From the NCBI GenBank assembly GCA_040954595.2, contig CM082585.2, forward strand, positions 11,673,079 through 11,730,719: a stretch of 57,641 bases of DNA, written 5' to 3'. The notes below the pieces were generated by a model. It made no database searches. It was not told the origin of the DNA and was given only the letters and a program-made list of their open reading frames with translations. Numbering within the stretch: position 1 is the first letter of the stretch; every line of letters starts with the position of its first letter. This DNA is from Balanoglossus misakiensis (lineage: Eukaryota; Animalia; Hemichordata). Shown in pieces: positions 14,175 to 54,593 of this stretch. The translations under genes were made by a program, and so were the position numbers.

Positions 14175-14269
14175 AGCAACTGTCAGGTGAAACTCTACTG
14201 ATCAATGAGTCGAGTATGGTTAAACTGAATATACATGTAGATGCCGTATCTGTATTGAAATCCATCACA

Positions 14270-14302
<33 letters not shown>

Positions 14303-14420
14303 AGCAACTGTCAGGTGAAACTCTACTGATCGATGAGTCGAGTATGGTTAAACTGAATATACATGTAGATGCCCTATCTGTATTGAAATCCATCACAGAT
14401 GATGATGAAGATGATGGTGG

Positions 14421-14462
<42 letters not shown>

Positions 14463-14471
14463 CGACGATGG

Positions 14472-14523
<52 letters not shown>
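14175..14523. repeat. Tandem duplication of a ~95-bp unit, each copy ending in a (GAT)n microsatellite
   Basis: The unit agcaactgtcaggtgaaactctactgatc...ccatcacag starts at ~14176 and ~14303 with 2 mismatches. The first copy is followed by ~11 GAT-type triplets and the second by ~40. Confidence 0.92.
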
Positions 14524-27600: not shown

Positions 27601-30600
27601 TCTTACCATGCTTCCAAGTCTATCCCATTCCCGGATGAGATGGTTGAAATCCAGATAGATCAACGGATTCCAGAACCTGGGAAAGTATCCTTCGTAGGGA
27701 ATTCCCCTACCCTGGATGAAACAGAAGGGAAAAGGAAAATGCTGTAAAAAGAACCCACCATTCAAGGAAAAAACTCCCCATAAATTATCTTGCCACTTTA
27801 GCTGTTCTTTAGACCCTCAAAATTTTTATACAAATAATGATTTGTAAGAACACTCACATTTTCAACCCAAACTGATTTTTCATCTTCCTTCAAGATGTAA
27901 TTCTTCACACCAACTTCAGCTGCGACTCGGAAGAGCCTGTTCTGAGTAACACCACCGTAAGATCCACCCAAGTCACACCATCCAAAATCATCACCCTGTA
28001 AGAGAATGCTATAGGTCATAAATGCATACATAACATTTGACAATTGCATCTGCATGTTTGAAGCACTATCATCTCTAACTTTTGGTAATTCTTTTCAATA
28101 TGTTTGTTTTGCACGCAAACTGCGGAACTGTTTTCAAATCCTAAAACACAATAAAATGTTTGGTGGTATGCTTATCAACACAGCCGATGGCCAGTCTGCA
28201 ACCCTACCACATGGCAGAGCAACTTCTGATGAGAAACAAATTAAACCCCCCTCCTCCCAATTTCACAATGACAGTACCTCAATAGTCAGAGTCCGACCGC
28301 CAACCCTGTCCCTCGCCTCCAAAAGAAGGAAATCAATACCCTCCTTCTGTAGCAAATGGGCTGCACTCAAACCTAAAAAGTAAACAAAAGTTAGAATATC
28401 ACGAATGTACCATAGTTGATTTCAAGAACGCATATCCAGGCTGACATGTTGTCCACTTTATTCAACCAGAATTAAACATTTATGACTTTGAAAAAAGATG
28501 CATTGATGGACGAAAAATCTATTCTCTGCCGGTCAGAATGATTGAGCCTTTCAATGTCATATCAGACATTCAGAGGTGTCATTGTGAATCCATACAATAC
28601 ATAACTATAATTATTGAGTTTCCATGGAGATACTCAGCGCTGTACATCACATTACCTCTGTGTAGCAACAGTATGACAATATGGCTGATACTGTTTTGAA
28701 CACATCATTTAAAAAAATATGCAGTAAACATGATTTTAAATTTGCAGCAGCTGCTCAAAAACAATTTCCTCTGCATGACTCTGATATTGATCATGAGTTT
28801 TTCTGTAAATAATGATGATAGTACTTGAAAAGCAATTAAAAATGTCACTCAAATTCATACATTTGTATGGATGTAATTACTTTTTAGTAGAATGTATTAT
28901 GTGTCTATGCAAACCAGACATATTGCATTACCAAAATCAACATTAATTTTGTAATGACTCATGATGTCAAATTTTGCAACTTGGTGCTAAGTTGTTTTAG
29001 TCCATTTTATTAAATTAGAGCAAATGGTATTAATTGCATAAAACAATGATTGGTTGACCTGCAGGTAAAATTACACCTTTCCCTTCAAGCAATTTCAATC
29101 ACTTAGTGTGTAATTTAACTTCGGAGGTCATTTTATTTTATAGATAGAATTCTGATCAGGTGAAAACCCTTCATTATGCTGTAAGCCATGAAACTCTTGA
29201 GTCTACACTTTTTCCCATTGAACATCTGCACCCTGACATCAATATTCTCAGCTTGTCATTTTCAGGCACCCGGGAATCATCAATGCAAACACTGGGATTG
29301 CTTTTATTTCCATCTCAGGAGAATAATGACATGCTCACGCTGGACACTAAATTTTTCAATTACTATATCCTCCAAGTGAGAGTTAATTCTTAGATTCCAT
29401 ATTATGAAGACTTCTCCCATTCATGTTTCAAGCCAAGATTTCCTCTTAATACATGCATGTTTGAAGATGATTTAGATTTACTTCAGGATACTAAAAGTAG
29501 AGCCCAGGGAGTTATCTTTCTATGATTTATAATATTCTAGTTTTTGTGTGTGTATGTGTGTGTAATTTATGACCACTGCAAGTGGAACAACAGCCCAGAT
29601 TTATTATAGAGTAACAACCCTAGGAGAACTCTTTCCGCTCCGAAAATCACAGAGCTTTACAAAGATTTAGAAAGTCAATCCACAAAATGATGAATACTGA
29701 TGGAAAGGTACAAGTCACGTAGTAGGGAACTTGAATCAACATTTCACGGCCTACTATAGTTGTCCCTCTCTATTAAATTCGTCCCCAGGGACAAATCTTA
29801 GTTTGTAAAACATGACCATCAATAATAGCAGATCCATTCTAAGTGATTTGGCAGAAATATATTTTACGAATACCTTTCATGAAAAATTCATAATACAAAG
29901 TCCTTTCTGAAATGAAAGGAACCCACGTAATCATGCAAAGTGCAAATTATTAATGTAAAAAAATTGGAAGAATCAAACCACTTATTCACAGGAAGGAAGG
30001 CTATAGCTTAAATAATTGATCAACGTTTATATGCCAAACTGACTTATTGCATTCTACTGTTCTGGGGTATTGTCATTAATACTATGGTTTGTGATTATTT
30101 TCTGTTATTGCAAACTTCTCAATGAAGGTAAAGGATTTAATATGCATTCTGATATTATGATAAATGAACATTACTTTTTTGATCAAAAGCAAGCTCCAAT
30201 GGGGACTGTGAATTTATGGCCTCAGCTAGACGTATTCCCTGAATTTCATTGTGAACGAGATTTGTGTGTATTTTAGACCGCTGGGTATAGCAACGTTTTC
30301 CATAGCTACAGTGAAGCCGTAACATGAGGTTAATCTCCATGGAGTAACTTCAGACAGGCTACGTGCTTGAATGATCATGTCACATGACATACAACCAAAG
30401 GTCATCCAACAATTGAAATGCAAGACATAACTCTCTATTGGCTGGTCGACAAGGCAATTGCACAGGATAAAATACTTCAGATTAACAGAATCAATGCATA
30501 CAAAATGCCATCAGAATAATGGACTTTATGGATGCTTAATACAGTAAAAGTGGGTGAAAGAAATGAACAAAAATGCTCAAATGTTTGCGTTTTAATATTC

Positions 30601-33387: not shown

Positions 33388-36300
33388 TCAAGAAATACTG
33401 GTATGAACCGATGGGTCAGGGTTCGTAGTATTATTATGTCTCAGCAAATAGCTGTCCCTTGAACCCTTGGCACGATTTACATTGTTTCTATTCCTGCGCC
33501 AATCATTGTCGTATTGTCTCTGCAGTTTCATTGCCAGCTGAAAGTCCAGCTCTTCCTGTGAAAGTAGCGGCTTCTGAGGACTTGTAAAGCGTTCCATTGA
33601 CCTCCGAGATTTCTCTCCGTCTGCTTTGAATTTCTTGGGTTTGTTTCCCTGATCACCGCTGGTTTGACGCTTCCTTCTGATTGCTCCACTCTGAGTTTGA
33701 GTGACCTGGTCTTTGGCATCCTTGTTGTCAGAGACTTTCAATTTCTTTGGAGTAGTTTGTAATTCGTTATCAATACTTGATGTGCTGGTTACATCACTTG
33801 CACACTGTGAGTTTGCCTGGCTGCTCTTTCTTCTCCTGGGAGAAACTGCCATAGCATTGGCAATACTGTTATTTGGCAAATTTCCTGCTGTGTGTTGTGA
33901 CCTTTTGGTGCAGTCGAAGGGCTTGGTTGGAGGCCTATCACACATTTTCACTTGGTCTTGTGTTTTGGTTTTCCTGGGAGATCGGGGTGAGCTTGAAGGG
34001 CAGCTAGTCTCACTTGCTGTACGAGTCCGAGCTAGTTTGTCTCTTCTGTTGTTTGAATCAACAGTGGTACCACTCACAAGGGAGTTATCAGTATTTTTAG
34101 CTCCCCTGTTAAACATATCTGCTATAGTTCTCACTTTTGAAGTCTTGGCGTCTTTTGGCACTTGATCAAACTTCAATGTCCGTGAAGGTTTCCCACTACT
34201 TTTACACAAATCTTTGGCTGCTACTGAGTTATTATTGTTCCTGTTTCCAGATCTATTTCTGGTTCGTATCTTGTATGCAGTTCTGTCCACCACAGCGACA
34301 TCTTTGGCTTTTTCATTCAGACACTTCACACCAAGTTCATCACTCTGACTTGCACCGATTTTTACATTGTGACCCCTAAATCCAGTCTTGACTTTCTCCT
34401 GTGATTGTAAAACAGTTTGAATTTCCTCATCAGAATCCGATTTGTAGTCTGAGGGAATTTTCAGAGTTGATTTGTCAGGATGTCTACCACCACTCCTATC
34501 TCTGACAGTGAGGTGCTGCTTTGAACCACATTCTGGATCTGACTTTCTCATTTTTGCAGACTGTTCTGAAGTAACAGTTGATGACGCCTTTCTTTTCCTA
34601 GAACTCAACTCAGCTGGAACATGATTTGGTATCATGTCACACTCTGCTCTCAAGCTACGTGTTCTATCATTCACACTGCTGCTCAGAGAAACCAAGACAA
34701 GGTGTGGCGAGGGTTTTCCCACATCACCACCAGTCATCGTTCCCTTAGATTGGTTTGCCAACACCTGTTTGCGCTCGTCTGCCAGACTCAGCCATTTTGC
34801 CATCACAAGAGGTGAATGTTGGAGCCAACTCTCGTCTTCATTCAATTTGCTTTTACTGAGGTTGCAAGGTGTTGTGTGAACAAGTACTGGCGTTAATAGT
34901 GTGCCATCCAGACGTCTTTTGGGTGGTGTTCGTGGAGATGTGTGTATAGGTTTAAAATGATTCAGTTCTGGTGCGATGCTATCGATGCTTGTCGCGCTGT
35001 TCCTGCCTCCAGTTGGACTCTTCCTCCTCACCACATCAGTGTCATCTCCTTCTTTCTCCGGATCCCCTTCCTGATGCTTTTCCTCGGTAGATTTATCCAG
35101 GGATTCAATGTCAAGGTCAGTGGTATCACTGCAACTCCTGCTGGGCAGTGGCTCGCTGACGTAGTCCGGAAAGAAGCAGGATTCGGAATCTGATCGGCTC
35201 GGTGAGGTGGACTTGGATGAAGCTTTGGCAAAAAATGTCTCTATGCTGACAAGATATTCTTTACTGCCTGTCGATGACCTGCTTCCTCTCTTGTTGCCAC
35301 TTGGAGTCTTTTTTGATGGACCTGGCACAGCACTGGCGTCGGGAGATCTGCTTGTGTTTGGGACCTGTGAACGAAAATGGAATTTATGCTATAAGTACAG
35401 TAAACATTGTCTTACACTGAACACAAGTAGAGATCAGGGCCAGCTGTCAGTTTCCAGGAGTTTGGTTTACGCCTGTGTTTTCATGAAGATTAACAGATCA
35501 GAACTGTACTAAAGCACAGGGATAGTGAAAACACGTTCACAAGTAACTACCTGATTCAGTTCTTGCTGCAGTTTCCTGGCAAGTACTTCGTCGCCTTCAG
35601 GGACATGATTGAGCTGATCGTAAAGTCTCTTGGCTAACTCCTCATCACTCAGAATGCCATCTTCAAGATCTGGTTCTGAATCAACCATTGGTACCGGTAC
35701 ATCCTAGATAGTAAAAGCATACAGACTTTTAATGATCATACCAGTCAGGTTAAAGTACATAAGAGGTGATTGCAGAAATACAAAGCGCTTACCTTGCCAA
35801 CATTTTCATTTAACTTTTTGGCTAACTCTTCATCTCGTAGCCTTTGTACCTCAGATGCTTTCTTCATTTCTTCCAGGTGTTTCATCTCTTCTTCTTGTAG
35901 TTTCTTGATCAACTCAGCACTTGCCTGAAACTCTAGTTCTTCTTCCTGTCTTTTCTGCTGCCTCAGCTGAATAATAGTGAAAACCAACATTGACCATCAC
36001 TCATTCTTGAATCATTCAAAATATATGCAATCTTAGACACGTCCTTTGATCATATATAGAAAATGCTGAATTTATAGCCATATTACCTGATTCAGCTGTT
36101 CTTCATACTCTTTCCTAACCTCTCCTGGTTCGCAGATATTTGGTACATTGTGAGAAATAATTTCTGGAAAGAAGTACATGAAGTTGCATGTAAGCCAATG
36201 GGCAAACTGTTTGAAACTAATTTTGTATACACTTAACTACAGGGTGGTAACTACATTAGTTTTACCAAGTACATGTAGATTATACCCAATCGCATAGGAA

Positions 36301-36825
36301 GTTAACATTAACAAATGAACCGTGGCGACAATCGCCCGGGGCCCCCCGGGGGTTGATTAGTGGGCGTGTCACTTGACCCGTAATATTGTCACTATTTGGC
36401 GGGCTCCTTTAAAATTATGCTGTCTGCCTAGGCCAGAAAAGTCAATGTATCGACTTATTTACCCCACATTTTAACAAGACAACCGTACCTTCCTCGAAAC
36501 TCTCATCTTCAAAGCCTTCTAAACGCCTTCTACACTTTTCCGGAAAAGCAGCTTGAATAATCCTCCATCGATTCTGGTCGATCAATTTGTTTTCTCGAGA
36601 TCGCTTTCGGGCCCAGCTGCTGATCCTAATCCTACACATCGGACAGGTGAAGTTGGCTTCCTCGACATTCTTTCGGAAACAGGGCATACAAAGTTCGTGA
36701 GAGCATGGCATGGTTACCGGCTCGATCAGAATCGACATACATATCGGACATATACAATCCGAAAGCAACAAATCTGGCCGATTAATGTCAAGCGTCGGAC
36801 GCGATCTGTCGTCCTTAGCCGCCAT
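33388..36825 (-). CDS. RNF168: RNF168-like RING E3 ubiquitin ligase
   Basis: Exons 36825-36489, 36163-36087, 35966-35793, 35703-35551 and 35364-33388. RING CPICMSILIEPVTMPCSHELCMPC...CPMCRIRISSWAR; EPGEVRKEYEEQ; UMI/MIU motifs; C-terminal MIU-LRM QEELDFQLAMKLQ...NRAKGSRDSYLLR. Confidence 0.9.
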
Positions 36826-37077: not shown

Positions 37078-40000
37078 ATGGCTGCGCCCTGTCCACTTGT
37101 CGCGGGTGAGTTGATATATTGAGTTGACCCGAAAAATGAGAAAGAGTGCATACTTTGACAGTTTGAAAATATGCGACACTAACACGGAGTGAAACAAACT
37201 AGAATTTTGCAAGAATGTTGTGTGAAAGTTCTTTTCTTTGAAGTATCTCGAGTTAGACTGCCACATGGCAATGTTTTCGTCGCACGTGCACGTGTGATAA
37301 TGTACACACCTTCCACGTTGTGTCCCCCTCATACATCTTACCATATTGCTGCAGTTTTGTAGCCCCGCGACTACCCTTGACGATTTTTGTCTAACTTCCC
37401 CATACCATGTGGTACGTCCATGCCCTCACATAAACAGCCGTAGATCCGCAGCAGATAAATGTAGCCCTGAATCCCGTACAGTGTTTTCCGAGAAGGGGGC
37501 GTTGCCCCCAAAAGACTGCCAGAGCACCAGGGTTACAATTATTGCACTTGCATATGTTTGGTTGTATTCTCTTTTTACAGTGCGGGCCTCTGCAGGCACA
37601 TCGTTATTTCAAGGACCACCAGCATTGAAACAGTTTGACAACTTTTCAAGGTGACTATTTATTTTCTCTTTCAGTGACCTTTGACCTTGTTAACCAACTA
37701 AAGCTAATCTTTATACATGTATAACTATGGCCAATTTCATCAGGTCTGTTGGGTTGGATGTGTGTGTATTGCAATTTTCATATAATAGTATATCATTTAG
37801 CAAATACTAGTAATATGTAACAATAAATTAAGTAATGTACATTATATGTCAAATGAATAGTGAATGATCTCTTTCTTCATCTCTTGCAACAGTGACACAA
37901 GCCCAAGATGTAGAGTAATAGCATTCAGTGCTGATGGCAGTCTCTTTGCATGGTGTAATGGACAAGTGTAAGTATTACTTTTCATAAGTTATCTCTTTAA
38001 CTAATGGCTGATCAGCTGTAGCTGATAACAGAAATTGTCAGTAGTTGATGGTGGACAAATTCAGATCTGCCTATGACTGTATTTTCATGCCAGGTTTTGA
38101 AATTTCAACCACGAATGTCTCAACCATCCATGTCCAATAATGTGCGATTTTTCCCCTTGCAGCATAAATATCACCAGTTTACCAACAGGTGACTTTGTGC
38201 AGAGAATTGACCGACCCAAAACTGTGTGTCTGCAGTTTTCACCCAGAAACAACATTTTGGCAACTTGGGAACCTTATGCTGGTGAGTTATAAATCATGAG
38301 TGTTGAATGTCATGTAGCATATTGATTAGGTTGGTACATGTAATATAATGAATGCAGTCTTCTGGGGACTTTGAATTTTAACCCAATTTTGTAGGATTTA
38401 GCAGGAAAAACCATAAACCTACTACCTCTGTTGAATTCAGTTACCAAGGATACACCAGCAGGAACTCCTAATTTGCATTTATGGGATGTGAAGACTGCGC
38501 AAGACCTCAAAGGGTTTGTACAGAAGAGACAAGATACATGGTTAGTGCATTGACTTGCTGGTAGAAATCTTGTCAGGTCCCCTTTTCTCTCTACAATCTT
38601 GTTTGGTGTTTTGAAAGATGTGATGACAGCTAAACCTGATCAATATATTTTGGACATCTTCATACATGCAACAGAAATAATAAAACAAAATTCCCGACCT
38701 ACCTTCTCTATTTTTCTTTCAGGTGCCCTCAGTGGTCATCGGATGAGAGTATCTGTGCCAGAAATGTGAACAATGAAATCCATTTCTTTGAAGGCAATAA
38801 CTTCGGTGGGTACCTCTCTGTTAAAATCTGTTTGGGAAAAAAATTGATGCAGAACATGCATGGCAATGCTTGTTGGTCCAGAAGTCTGGTTGAGAATGTG
38901 TGATGACTCTCACATCATTTGCAGCGCTTCCTACCCACTGATTTTGATTTGATTTGATTTTTCACCCACACTAGACACCATAGTCAGAAAGCTTCACATC
39001 CAAAAGATTGCAGACTTCCGACTCTCTCCAGGTGACATGCCTTGCAAAGTAGCAACATATGTGCCAGGATCAAAGGTAAGATTGCAGCAGCATTATTAAA
39101 AAGTTTATCTGTAAAATATTATTATGATATGAAATACAAATGTGTTTATGAATAATTCAGCAGAATACAAATTTTCTATTTTCCAGGGTGCACCATCATT
39201 TGTACGTGTTTACAAATATCCAAATTTGGAAGGTCCTGGATCGATGATTGCAAACAAGAGTTTCTTCAAGGCTGACAGGGTCAACATATTGTGGAATAAG
39301 AAAGGTAAGCTATCAACTGAAAATCTACATGTACACTCCAGGATATTCAATGGGGATATTATAAGCCCAAAAGAGAATACATATCACTCCTATAGTTGTT
39401 TCTGTTGAAATATTGTGTTATATTTTACATCTTGACCATTCCTCACAGGGACTGATTTGTTGGTGATTACAACAGTAGACGTTGACCAAACAGGTGCATC
39501 ATATTACGGTGAACAAGCTCTTCATTACATCAGTGCAAATGGAGAAACAAGTAATGTACCTCTGGGTGAGTAGCCTGACCGCGCTCTGTGAACTCTGACC
39601 TATGACACCTAGAATGACTCCTGTTACGTTGCTTGGTAGCCCATGACCTTCAACTATCAATGCAGGTGGGCAAGTTTGATTTGATGTTCCCGTAAAAACT
39701 ATCAATGCACCTTTGCTAAGTTTAAGTCTCTATCATGTAACATTGGCATTTGTTTTTCCCTTTCCAGCCAAGAAAGGTCCTATATATAGTGTAGATTGGA
39801 ATGTGAATTCCACTGAATTCTGTGTTGTGTATGGATGTATCCTTTGTTGTTTTCATGTCTAGTTTTAGACAATGTTTTGAATTCTTTCTCGAAACATTTG
39901 TGCCAGACCTTGGTTGGGTTCTGACTTCGTATTCTATGTCTATATCTAATTGCCAAAGATATGTATTCTAGTCATGGCTACGTTGTAGTTACATCATGTG

Positions 40001-42324
40001 TGTTTGAGATCACAAAATAAGGCCATGACTTCCAAATATGGATAACAAGAGCGATACTCCTTAACTGAGTGACAGTTATGCCTGCCAAGGCAACATTGTT
40101 CAACTTGAAATGTGAGCCTGTGTTTGACTTTGGTACTGGACCCAGGAATATTGTACACTACAATCCACAAGGAACCAATATCCTTTTGATATACGTTTAG
40201 TGTCACTGTTCAATTTTCTATACATATAGTTCAGATAGATGATACAGACAGACACTGTAGCATGCACACATTCACACGTGCGTGCACCTACACAAACACA
40301 CACGTACACACATACACATGTGCCACAAGCTCACCGACATGAGAATCACTAAATGAACTTTAACAAAATTTTCCCTAACTGTTGTCACTTATTTGCTTGG
40401 CTGGATTTGGTAACCTGAGAGGAAACATGGTAAGTTAATTATGCAAGGAAAAGGTGTGCAGAGTTTAACAAAAATTGTAACGTTTCTCCCACTGGACCGT
40501 GTACTGTTTGTCTTGCCTCACATGAAAATGTCCTCCATGTAAATTTCCTAGCCACGCATGACCTTGCAGAGTCTTGTGGAGTTCTGACAATAACGCATCT
40601 TAAAATGTTTAATTTCAGGAATTCTGGGATCGCAAGAATCTGAAGAATATCAGCAAGATGACCGCCAGTGATTCGACTCACTTTGAATGGTCTCCAGATG
40701 GCGCTCACTTCTTGACTTCTACATGTTCACCCAGGTTGAGAGTAGGAAATGGGTGAGAGAGGGGGTACTTTATGGGATAAGCTGGGCTTTGTGGGGGCAG
40801 ATAGGTTCATAACCTGGGTATGTCATTTAAATGACTTTGTCTCATTGGAGCATGTGTCTTTATAAAACACTGTCTGGGAGTAATGAATATACAGTGGCTG
40901 ATTTCATGGTTTGATTAGTTCGATGTCTTCAAAGCAGTGAGGTGGATGTCAATCAATTATTAGAGAATACAATTTTGTGTACTTAGGTTCAAAGTCTGGC
41001 ACTATACAGGAAGTTTACTGTACGAGACAGAAGTAGGGGAATTGTGGGAAGCCACCTGGCAGAGTTTCCTAGAGGGAGTGCTCCCAGAGAAACCAATAGT
41101 GTACCAAGCTGTTCCATCATCCGTCAGCCCCTCCAAACCAGAAGCAAAACCTAATGCATACAGACCCCCAGCCCTGCGAGGACAGCCCCACAAAGCCATT
41201 AGCGTGGTAAGTACAGAAATCTAGTAGAATCAAAAATTGTGAATTGTTACATTACCAGTTATGTTGAGTTGTCCAAATTTAACGTAAAGAATATAGTGCA
41301 CTTTGCAATAGTGTAGGTACAAAACTGACAGGTCAAATCCTCGTCTGTTTTTCCAGCACGCTCGGGAGGAGGAATTGCCACAGAATATGAAACCCAAAGG
41401 AGACAGTGGTAAGAAATGCTACATTTTCTCCAGAAGTGTGAATTGCGCCCTCTATGCCAACAGAGTGAATGAATGGGGGATGGAAAAAAGACAGATCCAG
41501 TCTTGTTTGAAAGTGGTTGACTATTCAAACTGCTTTGTCAGTTATGTTATGCCCCTTTTCTTCTTTTTTACAGAACATTTATCAAAGTCTGCTCTGAGGA
41601 ATAAAAAGAAAAGAGAATCGAAAGCAAAAGGCAAACACGAGGTGAGGATTTGTTAAGATTAGTTTAGAGTGTGATGAAGGGGAAAGAACATTGGTCATCT
41701 TAACAGACAGAATAGATGTCTGTGATATCTAATAGTATTTTTGTTTTCAAATTTGAAGGATGAGTTATCCCAGGAAAAACGAGATGCCATCGCCATGGCA
41801 GCCTACGTCATGGCTCCATCTCAACCAGCACCACATGTCCAGAATACTTTTGACCCAGACAGCAGTGGTGCCGATCCTGAGACAGAGAAAAAAATCAAAG
41901 GACTGAGAAAGGTAGACCTATATTGTTAGTTTTTTGCAGATGTAGTCTAAAGGGAATAGAGACTCTTAAAATATTAACAACCCCATGTTGGATGAAAACC
42001 AACCAAAAATCTGTACTTGGAATGGATTTTGGTGCCATTTTCCAAACATATCAAATTTTCAACATTGAACACAATATAGATACCCAAGAGAGCAGATTTT
42101 TTTCAAACTGAATATTGCAAACTCTGAGCTCTGTGAAATTGGAATAGAAGTGTTGCTAGGAGATAGGTCTTTAATTTGCTTTTAAATTTGTTTTCTAGAA
42201 ATTGAAGCAGATCGAGAAGCTAAAAGAACAGGCAGCATCAGGAAAGCAACTTGAGAAAAACCAGTTGGAGAAACTTGCAACGGAAGACGCCATACTGCAA
42301 GAACTGGAAGAACTCAAACTTTAG
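37078..42324 (+). CDS. EIF2A: Eukaryotic translation initiation factor 2A (WD/beta-propeller)
   Basis: MAAPCPLVAVRAS..., KSFFKADRVNILWNKKG, SYYGEQALHYI, KKGPIYSVDWN, FCVVYGFMPAKATLFN, LAGFGNLRG, EWSPDG, SPRLRVGNG, AYRPPALRG, KLKQIEKLKEQ...LEKNQLEKL; TAG at 42322-42324. Confidence 0.96.
39837..40075 (+). other. U12-type (minor spliceosome) GT-AG intron in EIF2A
   Basis: Donor GTATCCTTT; branch site TCCTTAAC at 40058-40065, 10 nt from the AG; no polypyrimidine tract. Splicing restores VYG-F-MPAK. Confidence 0.92.
40178..40388 (+). other. U12-type AT-AC intron in EIF2A
   Basis: Donor ATATCCTTT; branch TTCCCTAAC at 40371-40379; acceptor AC at 40387-40388. Splicing restores NPQGT-I-ICLAGFGNL. 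Confidence 0.92.
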
Positions 42325-43529
42325 AAATCTTTATTCCAGGTAGCTTATTCAGTTTTCTAAGATAGTGGTCATTTTGTTATCTCTGGAGTCTTTATAGCCA
42401 GTGCAAAATGCAAGTCAGCTGTCCAAGATGGTGGCTGTACTGTAAGCTATGGAGGAGGAAATCAGTCAACAAACAAACATATTGACTGTCCAAGATGGCA
42501 GCCGTTATCGTAATATGACAAGTTTCTTTATGTAATCTGAAAATCATTTGAAAGTTTAGCACAATATATACAACACTCTTAAAGATTTTTTTTGCATGAG
42601 TCATAGTTCCATCCCATAGCTACTCATCTAAATCTAAATGTTATATTTTTTTTTATGATCTGGTTTTTCTCCATATTCAATTTTTTTTATTGTAAACCAA
42701 GCATCACAAGTAATCCTGTACTCTTCATTTACCGTTCCATTGTTAATCTTTTTCTTGTAAATAAAATAATAATTTTCACCATATGATAATTATCGTGGAT
42801 GGATGGAGTGTGTGATTTATGTGATCAGCAGATCTTCCTCTGAATTCAAATATTAGTTGTCAGACCAATAGTGTGTCTGGGCAACAAAGGGGTTTGTAGT
42901 AGGATAGCAGACAAACCTCTTATCATCAGAGACAGTTCTCGTGCTAGAGCACCGTGTACTTTTTATAAGTGTCATAATCGGGGCCAAGTATATTCCCCCA
43001 TGACAACCAAGCTACACTCATGATCAAATCAATGAAAAAAATACACACAGGATATGATGAATCTACTTTCGGAATCATTTTATTGACAAATCAATAATAT
43101 AAAAACATAAAATCTTTCATATAAATGCTCAACATCTAAGTGTCATGATAAATTTTAAAATTTTCAATGTATTTGGGGAAAAAAATAAAAATTTTGCATT
43201 ACTACATCCCTACAAGGGATTACTTTGCAGTCAAGGACAACTTTTGTCCAATACAGTAAGTGGCAACATTGTACATGTCAATAAATATGCTCAATAATAT
43301 AAGAACACTTGATAGCAAGTTTAAAATGTTAAATATTAATTTCCTATAAAAGGGATATTAAAATACTTTTTTTAAAATGTTCATTAATTTCCCATAAAAG
43401 GGATATTAAAATTCTATAATGTAGTAAAAACTTCCCATTAAAGTCAACTAAGGTGCAAAATTCTGAGAAAGGTTTATTATTAAATTTAAATCTCTATAAA
43501 AATGCCCCTAACGGCTACCATGGTGACCA

Positions 43530-46500
43530 TCAAATCGTATTACTGATTACAGTATTGCGAATGTCTTGGAGGCTGAAAGCTGTGTTGAAGACAAAGTTTT
43601 CTGGGTCTTTCTGTTCCATCAGCATAATCCCTTTGCCACTGACTGCTAAGTAGAGACCTACAGAGGAAAACAAAACAGAATCTGTCTAGGTTACAATATT
43701 CTTGCATAGTAAAGAGTTATCTTGGATCAGATTGCAAACAAATGTTTTTAGATGATGAGAGAAAAGTAGTAAATGTATTCATGATTGCTTACCTCTAAAA
43801 TATGCTGACTCAAAGACATATCTATCTGTACCCTTAGCCCACAGTCTGCGATAAAACACTCTGCCATCAACATGTTTCAACTTCTCCAGGCTGACAAAGC
43901 CCACCTTCTGAAAAATAGAAAGCATTGGATATATTTTAAAATCCCCACTCATTTTTGGTGTGAAAGTAACCTTAGCTATTTATATACAAGAAAGCCATGA
44001 CAACACTTAGTTTTCAAGTTTGAGAATTATTTTACCTTGAATGTCAGACTGCGATTACGTCCTGTTGAAACGGCCAGGCACTTGTTGAATTGTTGGTTGA
44101 AGAGTACGACCGCAAGATCTGGATCGTCTGGGTTGACTTCATTTTGTATGTCGTATGGCCACAGAACTTTGTACTGGTACATTGTCCATTGTCCTGCAAT
44201 TATTCACAGAAGGAATAGACTAATTTAGAGATAAAAAGTTCAATACTTACAATCATCTTGCATCAATCAAGATACCTTGCTGAAAACTGTTTTCATTCTC
44301 TGCCATGTATGAACAAAAATCTGTTTTCTCTCACCTTCTTTGAAATCATTATTTGCCGCCACTACTTGCAATCGATTCCTGTCAGGCATGGCAACAAAAG
44401 AACTGGAATCATTGGAAGGATATATATATGTGTTGTATCTGTCATAGTAATGCACCATGGGGAATCCATCATCAGATTTATCTATGTATTCCCTCTCCAA
44501 GACAATTGTCTCAAAAACAATTTTGCCATCTGGAAATCAAACAAAATAGAATCAGATTAGCAATTGAGTGTTGCACTCAACATACAGCCAATATGTCACA
44601 GTTTCAGGGAGGAAACATGTCCTTGTGAACAAAACGAGACTGACCATCAAACTAGCATACTTGGTTTTATCTCTAACTTTTTAAAAAGAAACTTCATTGG
44701 CCAATACACCGACACACAATAATTGAAGGTGGTGTAAAAACTCACTGTCAATCAGAATGTCTATCTTGATTTCAATAAATGTGTACACTTCAGTTGGTCC
44801 GTCATCTTCATCATCATCATCGTCGTCGTCATCATCAGGCTCAAGTTCTATCTTTCTCTTCAAGATCTGCAAACACAAAAATATTTCCATGCTATTGAGA
44901 ATTGTTCCAACTCTTTAATCACATGGCAGATGTTAGTAAATGTTCATTCAATTACACACTGTCACTGCATGAAATAATTCTGAAAATGTACATGCATGCA
45001 ATTTGACCACCAACTTTTACCAAACTTTATTCCTATTTTTATCCAGGACTGGTGACTTTGGTTAGATTAGTATTTGCTAATGACTGTTTGTGGAGGACGT
45101 GACAATTTTGCATACTTACAAATATAATTTGTCCGTCCATTTGATGAAAACGGTCTAAGATATCCCTGTGTTCAGCTGCTGAGACATCAAGGCCATTAAC
45201 TGCATGCAGAACATCACCAACTCTGTGAGATTGAAAATATATCATGTTACAAGAGGACATTAAAGTTTGATCCAACTCGGGGAGAAAAGATTATTTTGCA
45301 GTGTTCTGCTGTGTTTGTGACAGCAGTCTTTAGTCACCTTTCAATGTTATCCAATACACAAGACCACATCAAAACTGTGTATGCGACTACAATGTTCCGA
45401 CTAAAATACTATATGGCAGCTACATTAATACCTCAATTTGGTTTTCTTTACAAAATCATGTTGTTCTTCTACCGCCGTAATTTTGTGCTTCTTTCTATCT
45501 GGAGTTTTGTCGTCGACATCTGTGCTGAATTTTACTCCCAGTGAGTGAAGATGATCATCCGTGCAAGGTATTTTGATGTCAGATTCCTCATGGATTATTG
45601 GTGCTTCCTGTGCAGCAGTCAATACATAAAAACAATTAGTCAAGATCTGCTTTGTTTCATCATTAAAAAACAACATGCACTAAATGCCTGTACTCTAACA
45701 CTAACCAGGCATTGTCTAAAATATTATTCTGGCTTTCATTAACGTTTTTGTTTTATTAAAACAATCAAAGCAATCTTATCTTTTAGCTATTTGGTATAAA
45801 ATATACTCCATTTCTGTGTTTGTAAACAAACAAACAAACAAACAAACAAACAAACCATGAGAGAACATCCCATGGCCATATCCCTGTGATGGAGCTACAC
45901 TATCTCCATCATGGGTTTTACCGATTGCATAATTTAAAGGCTATAAATAACCGAGGAATTTCCCTTACATTGCAGAGATGACAGCTCGAACTTCCGTATT
46001 TAAATACATGTACGGCCAAGATTGCCCAGCGAATTTAGTGAAGTATGTACAATTTCACCATCGATGGCTGAAATATGGTTCGTGAATAACCCCAATCGTG
46101 CCACGGCGCAAGGGTCAAACCGGCGAAGAAAACGGTGAGTGATTTATAGACCGCGGAACCACCACTTGTAATGAATTATCTGAGTGGAAAAACGATCGAA
46201 GGGGTTGGGGAAAATTTGCCAATAGGATGACATGAAATTGACAACTTACCATACTATCCTGTGCTCGTATACAAGGTGTTATCACCTCGATCACTTTGTG
46301 TTCAAAGTCTTCCAGGCGGGAATGAATTGTGCTTGTCAAGGAGCCAATGAAGGATTCACTTTCCACAGGACGCGATTTTTGAAGCCCGCTGACTCTCTCT
46401 TCTCCGCACAGCTTTCCATCAACGCTGTCGTCAAATTCACCATCGAGGCCCAGACCTCGCATGGCGGTTGTGAACGACTTCTGTTTTTTAAATGCGCGAG

Positions 46501-46546
46501 GATCAGGCGATCGCGATCGAGATCGAGTAGTTTTTTGTCCAATCAT
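43530..46546 (-). CDS. Leaderless 430-aa protein with a PDZ-like domain, an acidic linker and an IL-1/IL-18-like beta-trefoil cytokine domain
   Basis: Eight phase-compatible GT-AG exons (46546-46250, 45607-45432, 45222-45120, 44866-44746, 44529-44335, 44193-44036, 43907-43793, 43657-43530; 1293 nt). PDZ: SLGVKF...ITAV...LRVGDVLHAVNGLDVSAAEHRDIL. C-terminal domain: QWTMYQYK...LAVVLFNQQFNKCLAV...SLTFK...RVFYRR...YVFESAYFRGLYLAV...NTAFSL. Confidence 0.8.
45955..45964 (-). promoter_or_regulatory. NF-kB consensus site in intron 1 of the IL-1-like gene
   Basis: GGGAAATTCC on the minus strand matches GGGRNWYYCC. Confidence 0.45.
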
Positions 46547-48017: not shown

Positions 48018-51000
48018 CTAAATTGCGATATCAGGAACATGTTCATGATGGACCTGAGCTTTAATGTTTTCTCTTTTCGTTTCATCGTCGTCCACACTTA
48101 CAGCGACAAAGTCTGTTTCTAGTGCTGAATCTGCACTCACTGCAGTTCCACTTCTGGTAGTTACACCCCCGTTGTCCAGTCCCGGCCCGTCCACCAGGTC
48201 AGAGGTCGGTGAACCGCAATACCCACTCTCACCCGATGAGCTTATCTGCCAATCGATCAGATTCTGTCGCTCCAACTCTTCCGACTGGAGCGTCTTCGAC
48301 TGATCAGATATAGCCTTCAGGGCGTGGGATCTCCCTGACGGACTTCTTGGTAACTGCAGCAACAATGTCTTCCAGAATTTGGCGGTTTTCTTCAAATTGT
48401 CCGGTTGCCATTTCAGACAATTTGTGACCCTGATGATGTGTTTCAGGGCTTTCATGTGATCAATATCTGCATTGGCTGGAAGTTCTTTGGCAATGATGAT
48501 TACCAGGTTGCTGTGGAGTTTGAGAGAATGTTCTAATGCCACGTTGAATTGAAACGAACTCCAATGCTCCTTCAGGTAGTCGGGGGTCAGCACAATGATC
48601 CAACTTTGGCTGGCTTCAATCGACTCAACAACACTATCTGCAATAGCTATCATACAAATACAAATGAAAAGTTAGTAAAACGTGTGATTTTTTGGAAATT
48701 TTTACTTTCAAATCTATAAATTTCTGATGTAGTTTTGCAACAATGCATGTACAGGATACAGTCATTTGATTAACTTTTGATACACTGATTATAGAATATT
48801 TTAGGTTTAATCAGAAAGCAATTATGACTTACCAGTTCCAGCCAAGAAATCTCTTTGCTCGACACAAAGTTTGAATCCGCACTTTCCCTCAAGGTAGCGC
48901 ATAATGACATATTTGACAAAGCGAAAATCTTGATCTGTTCCACTGTGTGAGATGAACACATCATACTTCTTGTCATCTGTGGAAACAGAACACACATGTG
49001 GATGAAACTGTATGACACATGGCAGTTGCAATGTGCTACAAACAGGTATTGTCTTCCTAAAAAGTTTATACTACATTCCTGATTATTAAAGATACAAAGT
49101 CTCACTTTTAGTACGGTAAAGAAATTTAAAATTTCAAAAAAATTATCAAAAATTTATCAATATTAAAGTTACATGTTTATCATCATGGCCGATCTCAGTG
49201 ACGCAAATTCAAATTTTGGCCTTGAGTGAGAAACTTCCAGGTTTTCCTGTTAACTTCCATATTTATTTTGTGTGCAAACAATTATCCGGTACTCATATTC
49301 AGCAGATACCGGAAAATTCCAGTTAATGACGGACAAAATTTGGGTCAGGGACTGCTGTACTGTGACCTATATTCCTGCCCAGTTGAATGCTCTGCAATTC
49401 TCTGGTTTGCTTCATACATCCTTCATTGCACATGGGGTCTTTGGTAAACTGGGTTTATATTAGAATATTTCTCTGGAAGTGTATATAAACCAAAGTTCAA
49501 AGACTGACGATCATATTTCTCATGCGTGTTTATCATTGGAGCACGTATTCAGGACTATGACCCAGTTATCTTTGGCACTGATGAATGGGTGAATGCACTG
49601 GCTCTATAGACATTAAAAGCCATGAATACTATTTCCAAGAAATTTTATTCTGGGGGGGATATGGTGAGCAGGAGTGGGGTGCTTTGAGCAGAAGAAAAGA
49701 AACAAGTTTGACAATTCGTGGCGATAATGTTACATTCTTTGGAACGTGGATCCGGACATGTTTTTCACGGAATAGAACAGAAATATATTTCTTTGAATAC
49801 AGTAATCATCCTATCAGTTCCGCTGTACAGGTTATAAGGTCAAACACAGAATGATGTCTGAGTATCTTATGTCTGGACTGGTCTTTTGAAATTCTTAAAA
49901 TTTTCTCAGCATATCTCAAATATCCATTGTTGAAGTATTACCCAGCATCTAGGTTTTTTTGAAATGCGATAACTGGGTTAAAAGGTTTATGAGGCTTTGA
50001 TATGATTTAAAGGCTGACACCAGTGAACCCACTTGTAATTGTTTGACAAGGCTACGTGACTTGAATCCTATGACCTATATATGGTACTGGTTAAAACCAA
50101 TTTTGGTTGTCACTGTTTTGTAAATATTTTCACACCTGTTGAATATTAGGCTTGTGCTTTCGCAGTGGTATTACCACATGGTTCAGTACAAGGAAAAACA
50201 TCAACAGCTTTGATGAGAGAACAAACATTAACTAATGGAATGTTTATCAAACTGCCCTCTTGATGACATCACAAAACTGGTTTTGGTCACTGGACCGCTC
50301 GCGTAAACATGTTAACAACCGACAACAAGGCGGTGACTGCCCTATTGTGAGTTGTGACCCCACGAAAGGTGTGGCAAAAGTCCAAGGAGGGGTCATGACC
50401 TCCAGGAGGCAGCTATAAAAAAAAATAGTACCATATACGGTAGTAAGTTGCTGATCAATTTCCGTAGGAAATTACCATCACCTATTCAACAAAGACTGAA
50501 CAGGCCAGCAATTAACTTACATAATGTTGAGTAATCGAAGAACTGCGGACCGGACCGGAACTACAAGTAGGAATGTGCTCTTTAGAAAATATAACACAGC
50601 AGTGTAACTGAATAATACACTCATGATTTCTACATATCGTGTTTTATGGGAAGAGCTGATCTGTAATTAGACTCTGGTTATGAAATGTGATATTGTATAT
50701 TGCACATTTCTCCGTCTCAAGAAGGCAACTCAGTCTTTTTGAGTTCAATCAGAGTTCAGAACCTGATGGGCCTGCAAATATACCAGATATCACTAGAAAT
50801 ACTCAGAGACCAGGTGTATGTAGACCATTGTGGTGGCAGTTTTGCATGTCCTCAAGATATTCTCTTTGAATTTAATTTTGTAGGTATGTGTATAACATGT
50901 AATTAACAGACTGGTGGAAAACAGTTTAAAATTCATGTTTGTCCCTTCTTTTATTATATATATATTTGCTTAAATAAATATTAACATATTTGGAAGAGTA

Positions 51001-53646
51001 ACGCAAAATGGACATGACTCCAAGATCATTTACAAATACATAAATCTGCATGCATGAAATATTGATAAATCTGTGAAATATATTATAAAGAATGTTGAAT
51101 ATTTCTGTATGGTATAAATATCTCTAACACTGTAAAAAACTCCTCTGTATCCAAGTCTGTATCTGTATATTGTAGAATTCTTCAGGTCTTTCATAAACCC
51201 TTGAGGCTCTTGGTGAAACACTACCAAGACTATCATAAAAGCAGACTGCTGATTGGTTATTGCTCATCTTCTGTGGTCACTCCAACCAATTGGAACCATT
51301 CTTCTGATACACTGTGAGATGTCGCCAGGTCATAACACCGCTTCTTACATTTTTGCACTGGCAGTCAGAAAGAGGCTGTTTATGTGTTCAACATCCCAAC
51401 CATTACCTCTAACCCCCCCCCCCCCCTAGATGAAACCCTGCAACTCTCATTGTCAATGAAAGATCAACAGTTCTAAGAAAAATTCTTAATCTTTTCTTAA
51501 GTAAATATTTCTTGTAAAAATGTCTATGAATTTAAAATTCACACATTTAACATTATCTCACTAGTTTCCCCTTTACTATGTAAAATTGCTACATAGCAGC
51601 TTATCACTGTTACTAATATAGTACAACAAAGAATCTTATGTATTCAAAAGACGATAAATGGTAACAAATGCATGACACAGCATATTCTACCAGGGTCTAG
51701 TATGTATGTTGCCTTTCATGTGGAGAGCGCCTTCTAGTGGTAAATCTGGCAGTTCATGTTTTACTTGAACATTTCTTTGTCACCTTCAGCCAAAGATTTA
51801 AGAAAAATACTACTGTATCTTCGATTGTTTTTGAAACCTTTTTTATACAACATGTTTGTCAAATGTGTTATATGTGCTTCTGTTGTCTTCCGTTTTGAGG
51901 TTTGTGCGATCCTTTTCTGGCAGAGAGGGCGCTTTCTCGAGTGAGGGAGGACACTTACCATTTTTTTCCACTTTGCCAAAATTGTACTTGTAGATGAGTT
52001 TTATATCAAGTTTGAATGTCATGCCAAGGGCGGACAGAATGAGTGCCATGATGACAATCGATGAAAGGACTATAATTATGATCAATAGGGTTGTGCTTTC
52101 TGCAGTTGAAGGTCCTGGATTTGGATCTGAAAGAAAATGGAGAACATTCTAAATTGAAAAGTATTGTATTTGATATGTACAACGAAAGTTATTATTTATA
52201 ACTAGCCTACTTTAAAGGCCAATATTTGTTGATGTTAGCATTTCTATAGATTTTAACAAATGATCACTTTTTCACTTTTTAAATCAGGGATACAGTTGCA
52301 TGCTGTTACCCTCACAGCCAGTCAATATGCATATACTATATCCCCCTGGAGTTGCTTTGTTATCTGCCTCTGCAAATGTACAATAAACAGACTTACCCCC
52401 ATAACTCAGTACCAAAGGAATATCTATGCTTCCATGGGCGTTGACTGCTTTCACTACATATGTGGCATAAGTAGACGCTCTTATGTCTTGTATGTAAAGA
52501 TATATGCCGATGGTTTCATTGTCATCTCTGAAATCAATACACAAATAATTTTGTTGTTGTTGTTGTTGTTGACTAGTTTTGTTTGGTTATCAATTGCAGT
52601 CCTATCCTACCATTGAATACAACAGGGTGGAACTATATTTTCATGGAAAGGGTCTTGCTATTTGCCTCTCACCTTCCCCTCTGTCTGGTACTGTATGTTC
52701 TGTTATCTAAGTCTTCTATGAAGTAATGACTTGTCTGGTTGTGCTTGTACCAAAAAATCATCTTGTCTTCGTCTCCACCATGTCCAAAGAAGAACTCGCA
52801 GTAGAACGTCACATTAGAGCCATGGAGTCTGGTGTAGTTACGGCAACGTGTCGAGTTCAGCTGGTGGGGTTTCTCTGTAAACTGCATTGCTGTGTGTGTA
52901 TGGGAAAAGTTTGAAAAACAATTTGCTTTGTTAATTTTTAACTGAGAGTAGTGATGATCTGACGGAATTGAACACATCTGTACTTTGGATTGAATGTACA
53001 CCAATATACTGCAATTTATTCTCAACAGAGCCATACAGACATGACCATGTACTTGAAAAATTCAAAGAAAATCTTACGTTTGGCCTGTAGTTCTTTGGTG
53101 TGGCTGATTGTACTTGTTCCATTGGAAGCACTACATGTATAGCTTGCCTCATCCCTCGTCATCAAATACCGGAATACTAAGGTCTGGTTTCCATTATCCA
53201 TGAAAGTCTCTGCTTGATCGACCCCTTTCCATGGATAAGGATCAGAGCCTTTATACCAAGTCATCATCAAATACCCTTCGGCACAGCACGACATGTCTTT
53301 GTATTGGGTAATGGTTCCAAACTCAAGATCACCCATGTCTGGGTTTGTGAACTTGAAAGTGTCATCTATATTGAAAAGAAACAGCAATCAAATACCAAAA
53401 GATCAACTAAAAGTACATGATAATGATACCCCTAACTATTGACTTGTCATAAAACTGAAAGTTGTTTTATAAAAGCGAAAGTTGCGTATTTAATTACATC
53501 TTGGTTGTCAAGTTGTGAGACCCACCTTCATCGTGCCCATTAAACTGATCACAGACGTTTTTCCCATGAGCATGGAATACCAAAATCGAAGACAATATTA
53601 TTATGACTATTCTGGACTGCAGTGGACACCTTGTCAGTTGTTCCAT
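48018..53646 (-). CDS. IL-1 receptor-like protein: signal peptide, 2 Ig domains, transmembrane helix, TIR domain and long C-terminal tail
   Basis: Exons 53646-53526, 53365-53078, 52889-52673, 52527-52397, 52126-51959, 48976-48833 and 48646-48018. Ig1 C...TWYK...DEASYTC; Ig2 VTFYC...FWYK...ATYVVKAVN; TM LLIIIIVLSSIVIMALILSALG; TIR YDVFISHS...FKLCVEQRDFLAG...SIEAS..WIIVLTPDYL...FWKTLLLQLP. Confidence 0.92.
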
Positions 53647-53731: not shown

Positions 53732-53741
53732 GGGAAACCCC
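53732..53741. promoter_or_regulatory. NF-kB-like site just upstream of the ATG-bearing exon of the IL-1R-like gene
   Basis: GGGAAACCCC on the plus strand, GGGGTTTCCC on the minus strand. Confidence 0.45.
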
Positions 53742-54593
53742 GCCTGCGTCATCGCCTTACAAAGGAACTGATGAAGTGCGGAGGAGTGCGTAACGGCCCG
53801 TACGTCATTAATCTCACCCCTGACTTTGTTCATGTATGAGCGTGACCAGGAAGGTCCAAGAAAGTAACTTACAAACACAATGTTGGTCTGATCACAGTGA
53901 CTGTGCTGATCACCATCACCATCAGTAAGATCAGGATGTGACAACCGTGTTCCACTTTCAAAAACTTTGTACACAACATACATTCCATGCCAATATTACC
54001 TTAAATAATTACGGACTCATGTTACTTTCAACGTCATGTTGCATTTCATAGCCGCGTGATGACCTCATTTGACTCGGACGCAAAGCGCGCGTTTTAGGGC
54101 AAATTCCAGGAAATCGCCGCCTTAGAACCGGAAGTAAATAAATGTGACTTCAGTACAATTCAAAGTAGGCAAAGATGGCTAGAATAGCTTCGCAGACATA
54201 GCCATTTTACCTGTTTAAACTATTTTACCCCACTGCGATTTTAAAGTTTTAATTAACACAGTTGCTAAGCAACCAGACGCCACAGCCGGCCCACCAAAGG
54301 TACAACCCCTCCCTACCATACTTACCCACCCCCATCAATTCATGAATTGGTCCAGTTCAGTTCCTCTTGCACTCAATGCGCAGTCTCTGTCCACGTTCTT
54401 GCAAAGGTGGCACCCTTCGACAGTGAAGAACTTTGTTTTCATTTTCCCTACCCGGTACTCCAGTATTCTTGCCAATATAGAGTAGTTGTGTAGAGGGTAC
54501 ACGGTTTGTCAGGTCAGTAGTCTTTTCATCAAAGACATTCTTGTGGGAAGATCGTACCAAATAATTTATTTGACGCTTTAAAACCCTTCGACC

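What the first reader, a model, noticed from the sequence alone, without database searches (positions are those of the whole stretch)
43530..46546. Candidate invertebrate interleukin-1-family cytokine with a PDZ prodomain, hidden across small exons
Seen: the last four exons splice into YIYPSNDSSSFVAMPDRNRLQVVAANNDFKEG|QWTMYQYKVLWPYDIQNEVNPDDPDLAVVLFNQQFNKCLAVSTGRNRSLTFK|KVGFVSLEKLKHVDGRVFYRRLWAKGTDRYVFESAYFRG|LYLAVSGKGIMLMEQKDPENFVFNTAFSL... This follows a PDZ-like domain, and there is no signal peptide. Knowledge: the blocks are colinear with the IL-1beta/IL-18 beta-trefoil (IL-18 IISMYK..MAVTI..IISFK..FFQR..FESSSYEGYFLAC; IL-1beta FESAQFPNWYIST..ITDFTM). IL-1 ligands are leaderless pro-proteins long considered vertebrate-specific. 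Inference: this is an ancient IL-1-family ligand that automated annotation would label a PDZ or uncharacterized protein. I recall recent reports of PDZ-linked IL-1-like proteins in invertebrates, so family-level novelty needs a literature check.
Basis: partly seen in the sequence, partly recalled or inferred. Interest (0 to 1): 0.95.

Follow-up and report, generated by a model that had tools for sequence, protein, structure and literature searches.

The report
Acorn worm ancestral interleukin-1 gene
This is an intact eight-exon gene, likely from an acorn worm, whose protein is 58% identical to an already published "ancestral interleukin-1"; it likely acts as an infection-induced alarm signal and lies next to a gene for an interleukin-1-receptor-like protein, an arrangement that is also already described.

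Summary
Confirmed, but the family is published. Eight minus-strand exons (46546-43530, seven GT-AG introns) give a 430-aa reading frame without a signal peptide. It is 57.9% identical (242 of 418) across all eight exons to Ptychodera flava XP_070538561.1, which is PflaIL-1 of the IL-1anc family (PDZ plus IL-1 trefoil; Nat Ecol Evol 2026, PMC13736523). A low-confidence model of that orthologue's C-terminal part is a beta-trefoil. All 18 listed Foldseek hits at E<=0.001 are IL-18, IL-33 or IL-1beta, but a second aligner ties IL-18 with ricin-type lectins. The neighbours are EIF2A, a two-Ig/TM/TIR receptor and a GCC2-like gene, matching the published hemichordate locus. The window's own protein was not folded and no RNA was seen. 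Leads not found in the paper's main text: NF-kB-type sites just upstream of both ligand and receptor genes, and a possibly circularly permuted PDZ whose Asp-rich loop holds a caspase-like site. This scan has found IL-1anc genes before in sea urchin, annelid and abalone DNA. Verdict: new member of a known kind.

The parts
46250..46546 (-). Exon 1 (99 aa): start codon and likely disordered N-terminal region with basic NLS-like motif and first DxxD-G site
   Evidence: 36/93 identical to P0009; pLDDT <50 for residues 1-60 of the orthologue model
46475..46501 (-). Candidate monopartite nuclear localisation signal (residues 16-24)
   Evidence: K-K-x-K pattern kept in all 5 full-length homologues; same position as the NLS predicted for PflaIL-1 and SkowIL-1.2 in Table S2; untested
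46415..46429 (-). Caspase-like site 1, D43-G44 (DxxD-G), between NLS and PDZ
   Evidence: present in P0004, absent in P0009, P0006, P0007; prediction only
45432..45607 (-). Exon 2: first half of PDZ, with the carboxylate-loop-like SLGV at 45544-45533
   Evidence: Pfam PDZ on orthologue residues 114-188
45120..45222 (-). Exon 3: second half of PDZ
   Evidence: 13 of 13 PDB hits are PDZ-protein entries; tblastn E 1.7e-8
44746..44866 (-). Exon 4: end of PDZ core, poly-Asp stretch (44845-44798) with caspase-like site 2 (D214-G215), then a beta-strand that may complete a permuted PDZ
44335..44529 (-). Exon 5: linker strand and first trefoil strands (trefoil starts about 44458)
   Evidence: 41/65 identical to P0009; model strands
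44036..44193 (-). Exon 6: middle trefoil strands
   Evidence: 28/52 identical to P0009, 33/51 to P0006
43793..43907 (-). Exon 7: trefoil strands with the FES motif (43814-43806)
   Evidence: 26/34 identical to P0009; FES in all 5 homologues
43530..43657 (-). Exon 8: last trefoil strands and stop codon
   Evidence: 27/41 identical to P0009
46670..46681 (.). Palindromic NF-kB-type site 124 bases upstream of the ATG, followed by a CRE-like half site (46660) and a TATA box (46641)
   Evidence: consensus match only
45955..45964 (-). NF-kB-type site in intron 1
   Evidence: consensus match only
43473..43478 (-). First AATAAA after the stop (a second at 43084)
48018..53646 (-). Upstream neighbour: IL-1R-like receptor gene, 7 coding exons, 557 aa: signal-peptide-like N-terminus, 2 Ig domains, transmembrane helix, TIR, long tail
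   Evidence: model; Pfam I-set, Ig_3, TIR; best TIR hits IL1RAPL2/1, SIGIRR, IL-1RAcP
53732..53741 (.). NF-kB-type site 86 bases upstream of the receptor gene's modelled ATG, with CRE-like half site at 53751
37078..42324 (+). Downstream neighbour (tail to tail): EIF2A
   Evidence: Pfam eIF2A E 5.8e-13 and 1.3e-5 on two exons; start codon
55890..57641 (+). 5' exons of a coiled-coil gene, likely GCC2, running off the window (first exon possibly at 54594)
   Evidence: reading frames; the GCC2 name is a recalled resemblance plus the paper's synteny; Pfam gave no hit on the 2 exons tested

Best explanation
This is an intact, single-copy eight-exon gene encoding a leaderless 430-aa orthologue of the published acorn-worm IL-1anc protein PflaIL-1, and it likely works as an inducible IL-1-type alarm cytokine. 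Shown: gene structure, open frame, 58% full-length identity to PflaIL-1, PDZ match, FES motif, no signal peptide, neighbours EIF2A and an Ig-Ig-TM-TIR receptor gene. Predicted (on the orthologue only): C-terminal beta-trefoil closest to IL-18/IL-33/IL-1beta. Inferred: microbial sensing activates NF-kB, which would switch on the gene through the kB-CRE-TATA promoter; the precursor would be held in the nucleus or cytoplasm (basic NLS); a caspase may cut at D43 (removing the NLS) or D214 (in the acidic stretch); the trefoil-bearing product would leave by a non-classical route (gasdermin pores or cell lysis) and bind an IL-1R-like receptor, most simply the one encoded next door. Identity as IL-1anc: about 0.97. 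The whole cytokine mechanism: about 0.65.
For: Open 8-exon frame. 242/418 identity to XP_070538561.1, which Table S2 of PMC13736523 lists as PflaIL-1. Orthologue: Pfam PDZ E 4.6e-5 and Pfam IL1 E 0.009. Glandiceps homologue residues 225-412: best ESM Atlas cluster IL-18, score 0.90, 176 shared features, 14 of 30 hits with the IL1 family set. Profile of alignment A4 against PDB sequences: the trefoil part hits IL-18 (E 0.06-0.3) and no FGF or ricin chain. Foldseek on the trefoil model: 18 of 18 listed rows at E<=0.001 are IL-1 family (14 IL-18, 2 IL-33, 2 IL-1beta; 2 duplicate rows hidden), first ricin-type at rank 26, first FGF entry at rank 32. Locus matches the paper's statement that ambulacrarian IL-1anc is linked to EIF2A, a putative IL-1R and, in hemichordates, GCC2. 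Exons 2-3 PDZ and 5-8 trefoil match the authors' description. kB pattern: 14 matches versus 2.87+/-2.19 expected, 0 of 100 shuffles; 3 of 7 distinct loci lie at the 5' ends of ligand and receptor genes. Family members are induced by infection or cGAMP in lamprey, urchin and anemone.
Confidence: 0.7

Rival explanations
1. Same family, opposite sign: the protein binds the IL-1R-like receptor but dampens signalling, as a receptor antagonist or together with a decoy-like receptor.
For: Fish nIL-1F, a PDZ-bearing member, is reported to inhibit IL-1beta activity and to bind IL-1R1 in grass carp (passages of PMC7144542). The neighbouring receptor has Ala where IL-1RAcP, SIGIRR and TLR15 have the BB-loop Pro, and its best TIR hits include the regulatory-type SIGIRR and IL1RAPL.
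Against: Only one IL-1-like gene is in the window (tblastn) and the paper lists one for P. flava, so there is no obvious agonist to antagonise. TLR3 signals with Ala at this position (A795; passage, routing recalled).
Confidence: 0.13
2. An IL-1anc by descent that works mainly inside the cell: a nuclear or cytoplasmic PDZ scaffold, or a constitutive alarmin released only by cell death, without regulated processing.
For: NLS-like motif kept in 5 of 5 homologues; SpurIL-1.1 and 1.2 are nuclear and were not reported cleaved; no signal peptide; PDZ groove motifs are kept.
Against: Tight linkage to a receptor gene from cnidarians to ambulacrarians, kB sites at both genes and a secreted lamprey paralogue point to extracellular signalling.
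Confidence: 0.12
3. The C-terminal domain is another kind of beta-trefoil (ricin-type lectin, FGF, fascin) and the IL-1 label reflects shared fold only.
Against: Sequence-aware searches favour IL-1: Pfam IL1 on 2 of 3 homologues tested and no ricin or FGF family, IL-18 only in the profile search, ESM features, Foldseek; IL-18 aligns longer and with about twice the identity; receptor linkage.
Confidence: 0.03
4. The gene is not expressed, or is spliced differently so that the trefoil is lost.
For: No RNA evidence was seen; a GT at 44275 and a 63-nt AG..GT segment exist.
Against: Seven canonical introns, no stop in 430 codons, 54-74% identity in exons 2-8 to the orthologue with no gap longer than 1 residue at junctions 2-7, TATA and poly(A) signals.
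Confidence: 0.02

Closest known systems
PflaIL-1 (Ptychodera flava XP_070538561.1, LOC139118898), IL-1anc family, PMC13736523 Table S2
   Same: 57.9% identity over 418 aligned residues, from first to last residue; NLS-like motif, PDZ, acidic stretch, FES motif; no signal peptide; its X1/X2 isoform break falls at this gene's intron 1.
   Different: A distinct protein (42% different), probably from another acorn-worm species; three motifs of it are absent from all 7 supplementary files. Longer poly-Asp run and an extra DxxD-G site at D43.
Glandiceps talaboti LOC144442221 and LOC144442320 (NCBI 'uncharacterized'), and unnamed protein P0004
   Same: Same architecture, 40-46% identity, all exons align.
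   Different: Two paralogues in Glandiceps on a contig of the same length, one copy in this window; no DxxD-G in the Glandiceps proteins. Glandiceps is not named in the paper's supplements.
Fish nIL-1F / nIL-1Fm (vertebrate IL-1anc; PMC7144542)
   Same: PDZ plus IL-1 domain; induced by flagellin and CpG (passages).
   Different: Reported to act as an IL-1beta antagonist; not compared by sequence here.
Mammalian IL-18, IL-33, IL-1beta
   Same: Predicted beta-trefoil, FES-type motif, leaderless precursor; best Foldseek and profile hits.
   Different: 13-19% structural identity; no PDZ in the mammalian proteins; activity here untested.

Membership tests
IL-1anc (PMC13736523) | N-terminal PDZ domain | tested here: met
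   Exon 3: 13 of 13 PDB hits PDZ-type; orthologue Pfam PDZ above cut-off; fold matches; exons 2-3 are 61-62% identical to the orthologue.
IL-1anc (PMC13736523) | C-terminal IL-1-type beta-trefoil | tested here: met
   Tested on the orthologue P0009 (54-74% identical in exons 5-8), not on the window's joined protein: trefoil fold; IL-1 type by Foldseek, Pfam IL1, profile and ESM features; VIA-align alone cannot separate IL-18 from ricin-type; model pLDDT 54.
IL-1anc (PMC13736523) | (F/L)ES motif in strand 9 | tested here: met
   FES at residues 382-384, 43814-43806.
IL-1anc (PMC13736523) | No signal peptide; under 500 aa | tested here: met
   430 aa; best 12-residue hydropathy 0.29 in the first 45 aa, against 3.31 for the neighbouring receptor. 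Hydropathy only; no dedicated predictor.
IL-1anc (PMC13736523) | Sequence orthology to a listed member | tested here: met
   242/418 identical to PflaIL-1.
IL-1anc (PMC13736523) | Ambulacrarian microsynteny: EIF2A and putative IL-1R | tested here: met
   Both are immediate neighbours.
IL-1anc (PMC13736523) | Hemichordate linkage to GCC2 | tested here: inconclusive
   A coiled-coil gene starts beyond the receptor; the GCC2 name is recalled, Pfam gave no hit on 2 short exons.
IL-1anc (PMC13736523) | Conserved exon layout and intron phases | tested here: inconclusive
   Exons 2-3 PDZ and 5-8 trefoil match the authors' text; the phase values are only in a figure that could not be read. Phases 1 and 0 for introns 5 and 6 fit what I recall of IL1B.
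IL-1anc (PMC13736523) | Induced on immune challenge | not testable with these tools
   No expression data seen; kB-type sites are indirect.
IL-1 superfamily (functional sense) | Proteolytic maturation, non-classical release, IL-1R binding and signalling | not testable with these tools
   Only motifs; undemonstrated for the family apart from one cleavage.
Ricin-type / FGF trefoils | Sequence or profile match to RicinB or FGF families | tested here: inconclusive
   No such family listed for 5 full-length homologues in Pfam or in the PDB profile search; fold similarity ties with IL-18.

The most novel reading that the evidence does not exclude
The locus is an NF-kB-co-regulated ligand-receptor pair, and the IL-1anc PDZ is circularly permuted (protease-type): its last strand comes after the Asp-rich stretch, so that stretch is a loop inside the PDZ. 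A caspase cut at D214 would then break the PDZ apart rather than merely clip a linker, making the PDZ a caspase-triggered latch on the cytokine, while a cut at D43 would first free the precursor from the nucleus. Basis: top 12 VIA-align hits of the orthologue model are protease/bacterial-type or engineered permuted PDZ domains spanning to model residues 220-231, while classical PDZ rows mostly stop at 189-198 (the type labels are recalled); DxxD-G in the same loop, by eye, in five listed hemichordate, crinoid and sea-cucumber proteins. 'permut', 'circular' and 'promoter' do not occur in the paper's main text.
Probability: 0.2. Interest if true: 0.6.

Novelty: new member of a known kind. Interest (0 to 1): 0.28.

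Why it matters
Invertebrate IL-1 was a long-standing gap, but it was filled in 2025-2026 and acorn worms are already in the published list, so the gene itself adds one more species-level member. Its value is practical: a compact, single-copy locus with ligand and candidate receptor side by side in the sister group of chordates is a clean place to test the two steps that the paper leaves open, receptor binding and processing of PDZ-bearing forms. The kB sites and the permuted-PDZ reading give concrete, cheap hypotheses for those tests.

Tried and rejected
Single-exon word searches with exons 6 and 5 found nothing (17 and 4 candidates, none at E<=10), although the P. flava orthologue is in that collection: a sensitivity limit. 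Pfam on the 8 single exons gave no PDZ or IL1 hit; exon 7 had no PDB sequence hit; ESM Atlas on exon 5 alone gave only unnamed bacterial clusters at 0.81-0.82. Of the 5 hits of the exon-7 HMMER search, 3 (P0001, P0003, P0005) are repeat-rich unrelated proteins and were dropped. Foldseek on the full-length model gave no match at E<=0.001; its top 8 rows were IL-1 family but with rmsd about 15. Alternative donor 44276, the 63-nt segment 45400-45338 and skipping exon 2 or 4 were rejected. A family-wide self-binding PDZ ligand at the C-terminus was rejected: by eye 13 of 40 uncut PDZ-bearing sequences in Table S2 parts 2-4 end in V/I/L/F, near the roughly one in four expected from composition (recalled). 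AU-rich elements in the 3' region are not clearly above chance (6 versus 3.3 in 460 bases, P 0.11; 2 versus 0.27 in the first 70 bases, P 0.02). No second IL-1-like gene was seen in the window by tblastn with three homologues. A ligand-receptor co-fold was not run: only one receptor Ig domain lies in a single exon and the ligand would have been a stand-in from another species. No whole genome was available, so copy number elsewhere is unknown.

Full report
Observation. Reading the minus strand in three frames and joining exons by their AG and GT boundaries gives eight exons from the ATG at 46546 to the stop at 43530: 46546-46250, 45607-45432, 45222-45120, 44866-44746, 44529-44335, 44193-44036, 43907-43793, 43657-43530. 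All seven introns are GT-AG, 128-642 bases long, with phases 0,2,0,1,1,0,1, and the frame is open for 430 codons. The N-terminus is hydrophilic (best 12-residue hydropathy 0.29 in the first 45 aa), so there is no signal peptide by this measure. AATAAA follows at 43478 and 43084.

Homologues. Word-based searches with single exons failed. A full HMMER scan with exon 7 returned 5 proteins at E<=0.001; two are full-length relatives, three are unrelated repeat proteins and were dropped. A profile search then gave 4 proteins among 4110 candidates. With cluster members the set is Glandiceps talaboti LOC144442221 (P0006, P0002) and LOC144442320 (P0007), Ptychodera flava XP_070538561.1 and .562.1 (P0009, P0008) and an unnamed protein P0004. 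The spliced model is 57.9% identical to P0009 (242 of 418; score 1207, best of 100 shuffles 82), 45.9% to P0006, 41.4% to P0007 and 40.4% to P0004, with all eight exons aligned. The alternative donor at 44276 truncates the protein (366 aa, score 776) and an extra 63-nt segment lowers the score (1181). The break between the two P. flava isoforms falls at the position of intron 1. The host is therefore most likely an acorn worm close to Ptychodera (inference); the species was not determined. No RNA data were seen, so splicing rests on this collinearity.

Literature. A search for IL-1, PDZ, invertebrate, ancient, trefoil returned one work in two versions; a search for the term IL-1anc returned only the same work. 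Of PMC13736523 (Nat Ecol Evol 2026) I read the abstract, introduction, results, most of the discussion, most extended-data legends, parts 1-4 of 7 of supplementary file 4, part 4 of 10 of the peer-review file and searched passages; figures were not visible and table cells are cut at 400 characters. Of the preprint PMC12338702 I saw passages only; its supplement could not be read. The paper defines IL-1anc as PDZ plus IL-1 trefoil, no signal peptide, (F/L)ES motif, from cnidarians to fish, and lists XP_070538561.1 as PflaIL-1 together with two Saccoglossus proteins. Three motifs of the window protein occur in none of the 7 supplementary files, so this exact protein is not in the published table; the authors mention more than 80 further unlisted ambulacrarian members from 28 species in their reply to reviewers, which may include it.

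Surroundings. Tail to tail lies EIF2A (37078-42324; Pfam eIF2A). Upstream on the same strand lies a 7-exon gene for a 557-aa receptor with a hydrophobic leader, two Ig domains, a transmembrane helix and a TIR domain whose best PDB matches are IL1RAPL2, IL1RAPL1, SIGIRR and IL-1RAcP. Beyond it begins a coiled-coil gene that resembles GCC2 (name recalled, not confirmed by a tool). This is the arrangement the paper reports for hemichordates. tblastn with three homologues finds only this one IL-1-like gene in the window.

Regulatory and processing motifs. A palindromic kB-type site lies 124 bases upstream of the ATG, followed by a CRE-like half site and a TATA box; a second kB-type site is in intron 1 and a third 86 bases upstream of the receptor's modelled ATG. 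The pattern has 14 matches in the window versus 2.87+/-2.19 in shuffles (0 of 100), collapsing to 7 loci; a random 300-base stretch holds one with probability 0.037, and three control gene starts (EIF2A, the RING gene, an approximate GCC2-like position) have none. The pattern was chosen after the site was seen. Residues 16-24 match the NLS predicted for PflaIL-1 and SkowIL-1.2. Two DxxD-G sites, D43 and D214, flank the PDZ core (P 0.03-0.05 against shuffles; one site each in P0009 and P0004, none in the Glandiceps proteins). The only mapped cleavage in the family, SpurIL-1.3 Asp184, is also followed by Gly and, by eye, the same motif lies upstream of the PDZ in SpurIL-1.1 and 1.2, which resembles D43 more than D214. 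PDZ-bearing proteins were not reported cleaved in the paper.

Mechanism and verdict. Best reading: an inducible, leaderless IL-1-type precursor, held inside the cell, possibly trimmed by a caspase, released non-classically and sensed by an IL-1R-like receptor, most simply the neighbour. Gene, orthology, domain order and locus are shown; fold is predicted on the orthologue; induction, cleavage, release and binding are inferred. Rivals are an antagonist role as reported for fish nIL-1F (passages of PMC7144542), a mainly intracellular role, a non-IL-1 trefoil and a mis-spliced or silent gene. Earlier notes of this scan describe IL-1anc genes in sea urchin, annelid and abalone DNA (unchecked) and none for this genome. 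The finding is real and correctly read, but it is a further member of a published family in a lineage already covered: interest 0.28.

Noticed in passing
window 48833-48850 (-), receptor TIR domain: The IL-1R-like neighbour has Ala in place of the BB-loop Pro seen in IL-1RAcP, SIGIRR and TLR15, as TLR3 does at A795; with its roughly 100-residue C-terminal tail it may use another adaptor or be regulatory.
   Followed up: partly
window 53875-53979 (-): A further ATG-bearing, hydrophobic exon-like stretch with a GT donor lies upstream of the receptor's modelled first exon; it could be a 5' exon, which would place the kB site at 53732 in intron 1.
   Followed up: no
window 46394 (-), inside exon 1: A phase-0 GT sits at the position where P. 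flava isoform X2 leaves exon 1 early: a possibly conserved alternative donor giving a 49-residue shorter N-terminus.
   Followed up: partly
window 43533-43544 (-): The protein, P0009 and P0004 all end in S-N-x-(I/V), a possible PDZ-ligand tail that C-terminal tags, as used in the paper, would mask; not enriched family-wide (13 of 40 by eye).
   Followed up: partly
window 46475-46495 (-): The basic motif is followed by a Ser kept in all five homologues (alignment), resembling a basophilic kinase site (recalled) that could gate nuclear import.
   Followed up: no
window 33388-36825 (-): RING-finger gene with a 666-codon last exon (Pfam zf-C3HC4 E 1.1e-9), probably RNF168-like (recalled), head to head with EIF2A about 250 bases apart.
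   Followed up: partly
window 1-32000: Exon fragments suggest PEX1, RPP38, RNASEH2B, an aldo-keto reductase, INTS6 and a monoamine oxidase (names recalled, not tested). Human RNASEH2B and INTS6 lie near ESD, and EIF2A, RNF168 and IL1RAP on one arm, as I recall, which would fit old linkage.
   Followed up: no
window 27697-27707 and 11388-11397: Two further palindromic kB-type sites, the first within the amine-oxidase-like gene region.
   Followed up: no
window 14265-14647: A long triplet repeat giving poly-Asp, poly-Ser and poly-Met frames.
   Followed up: no
window 43330-43410: A direct repeat of about 30 bases in the 3' region between the gene and EIF2A, seen by eye.
   Followed up: no
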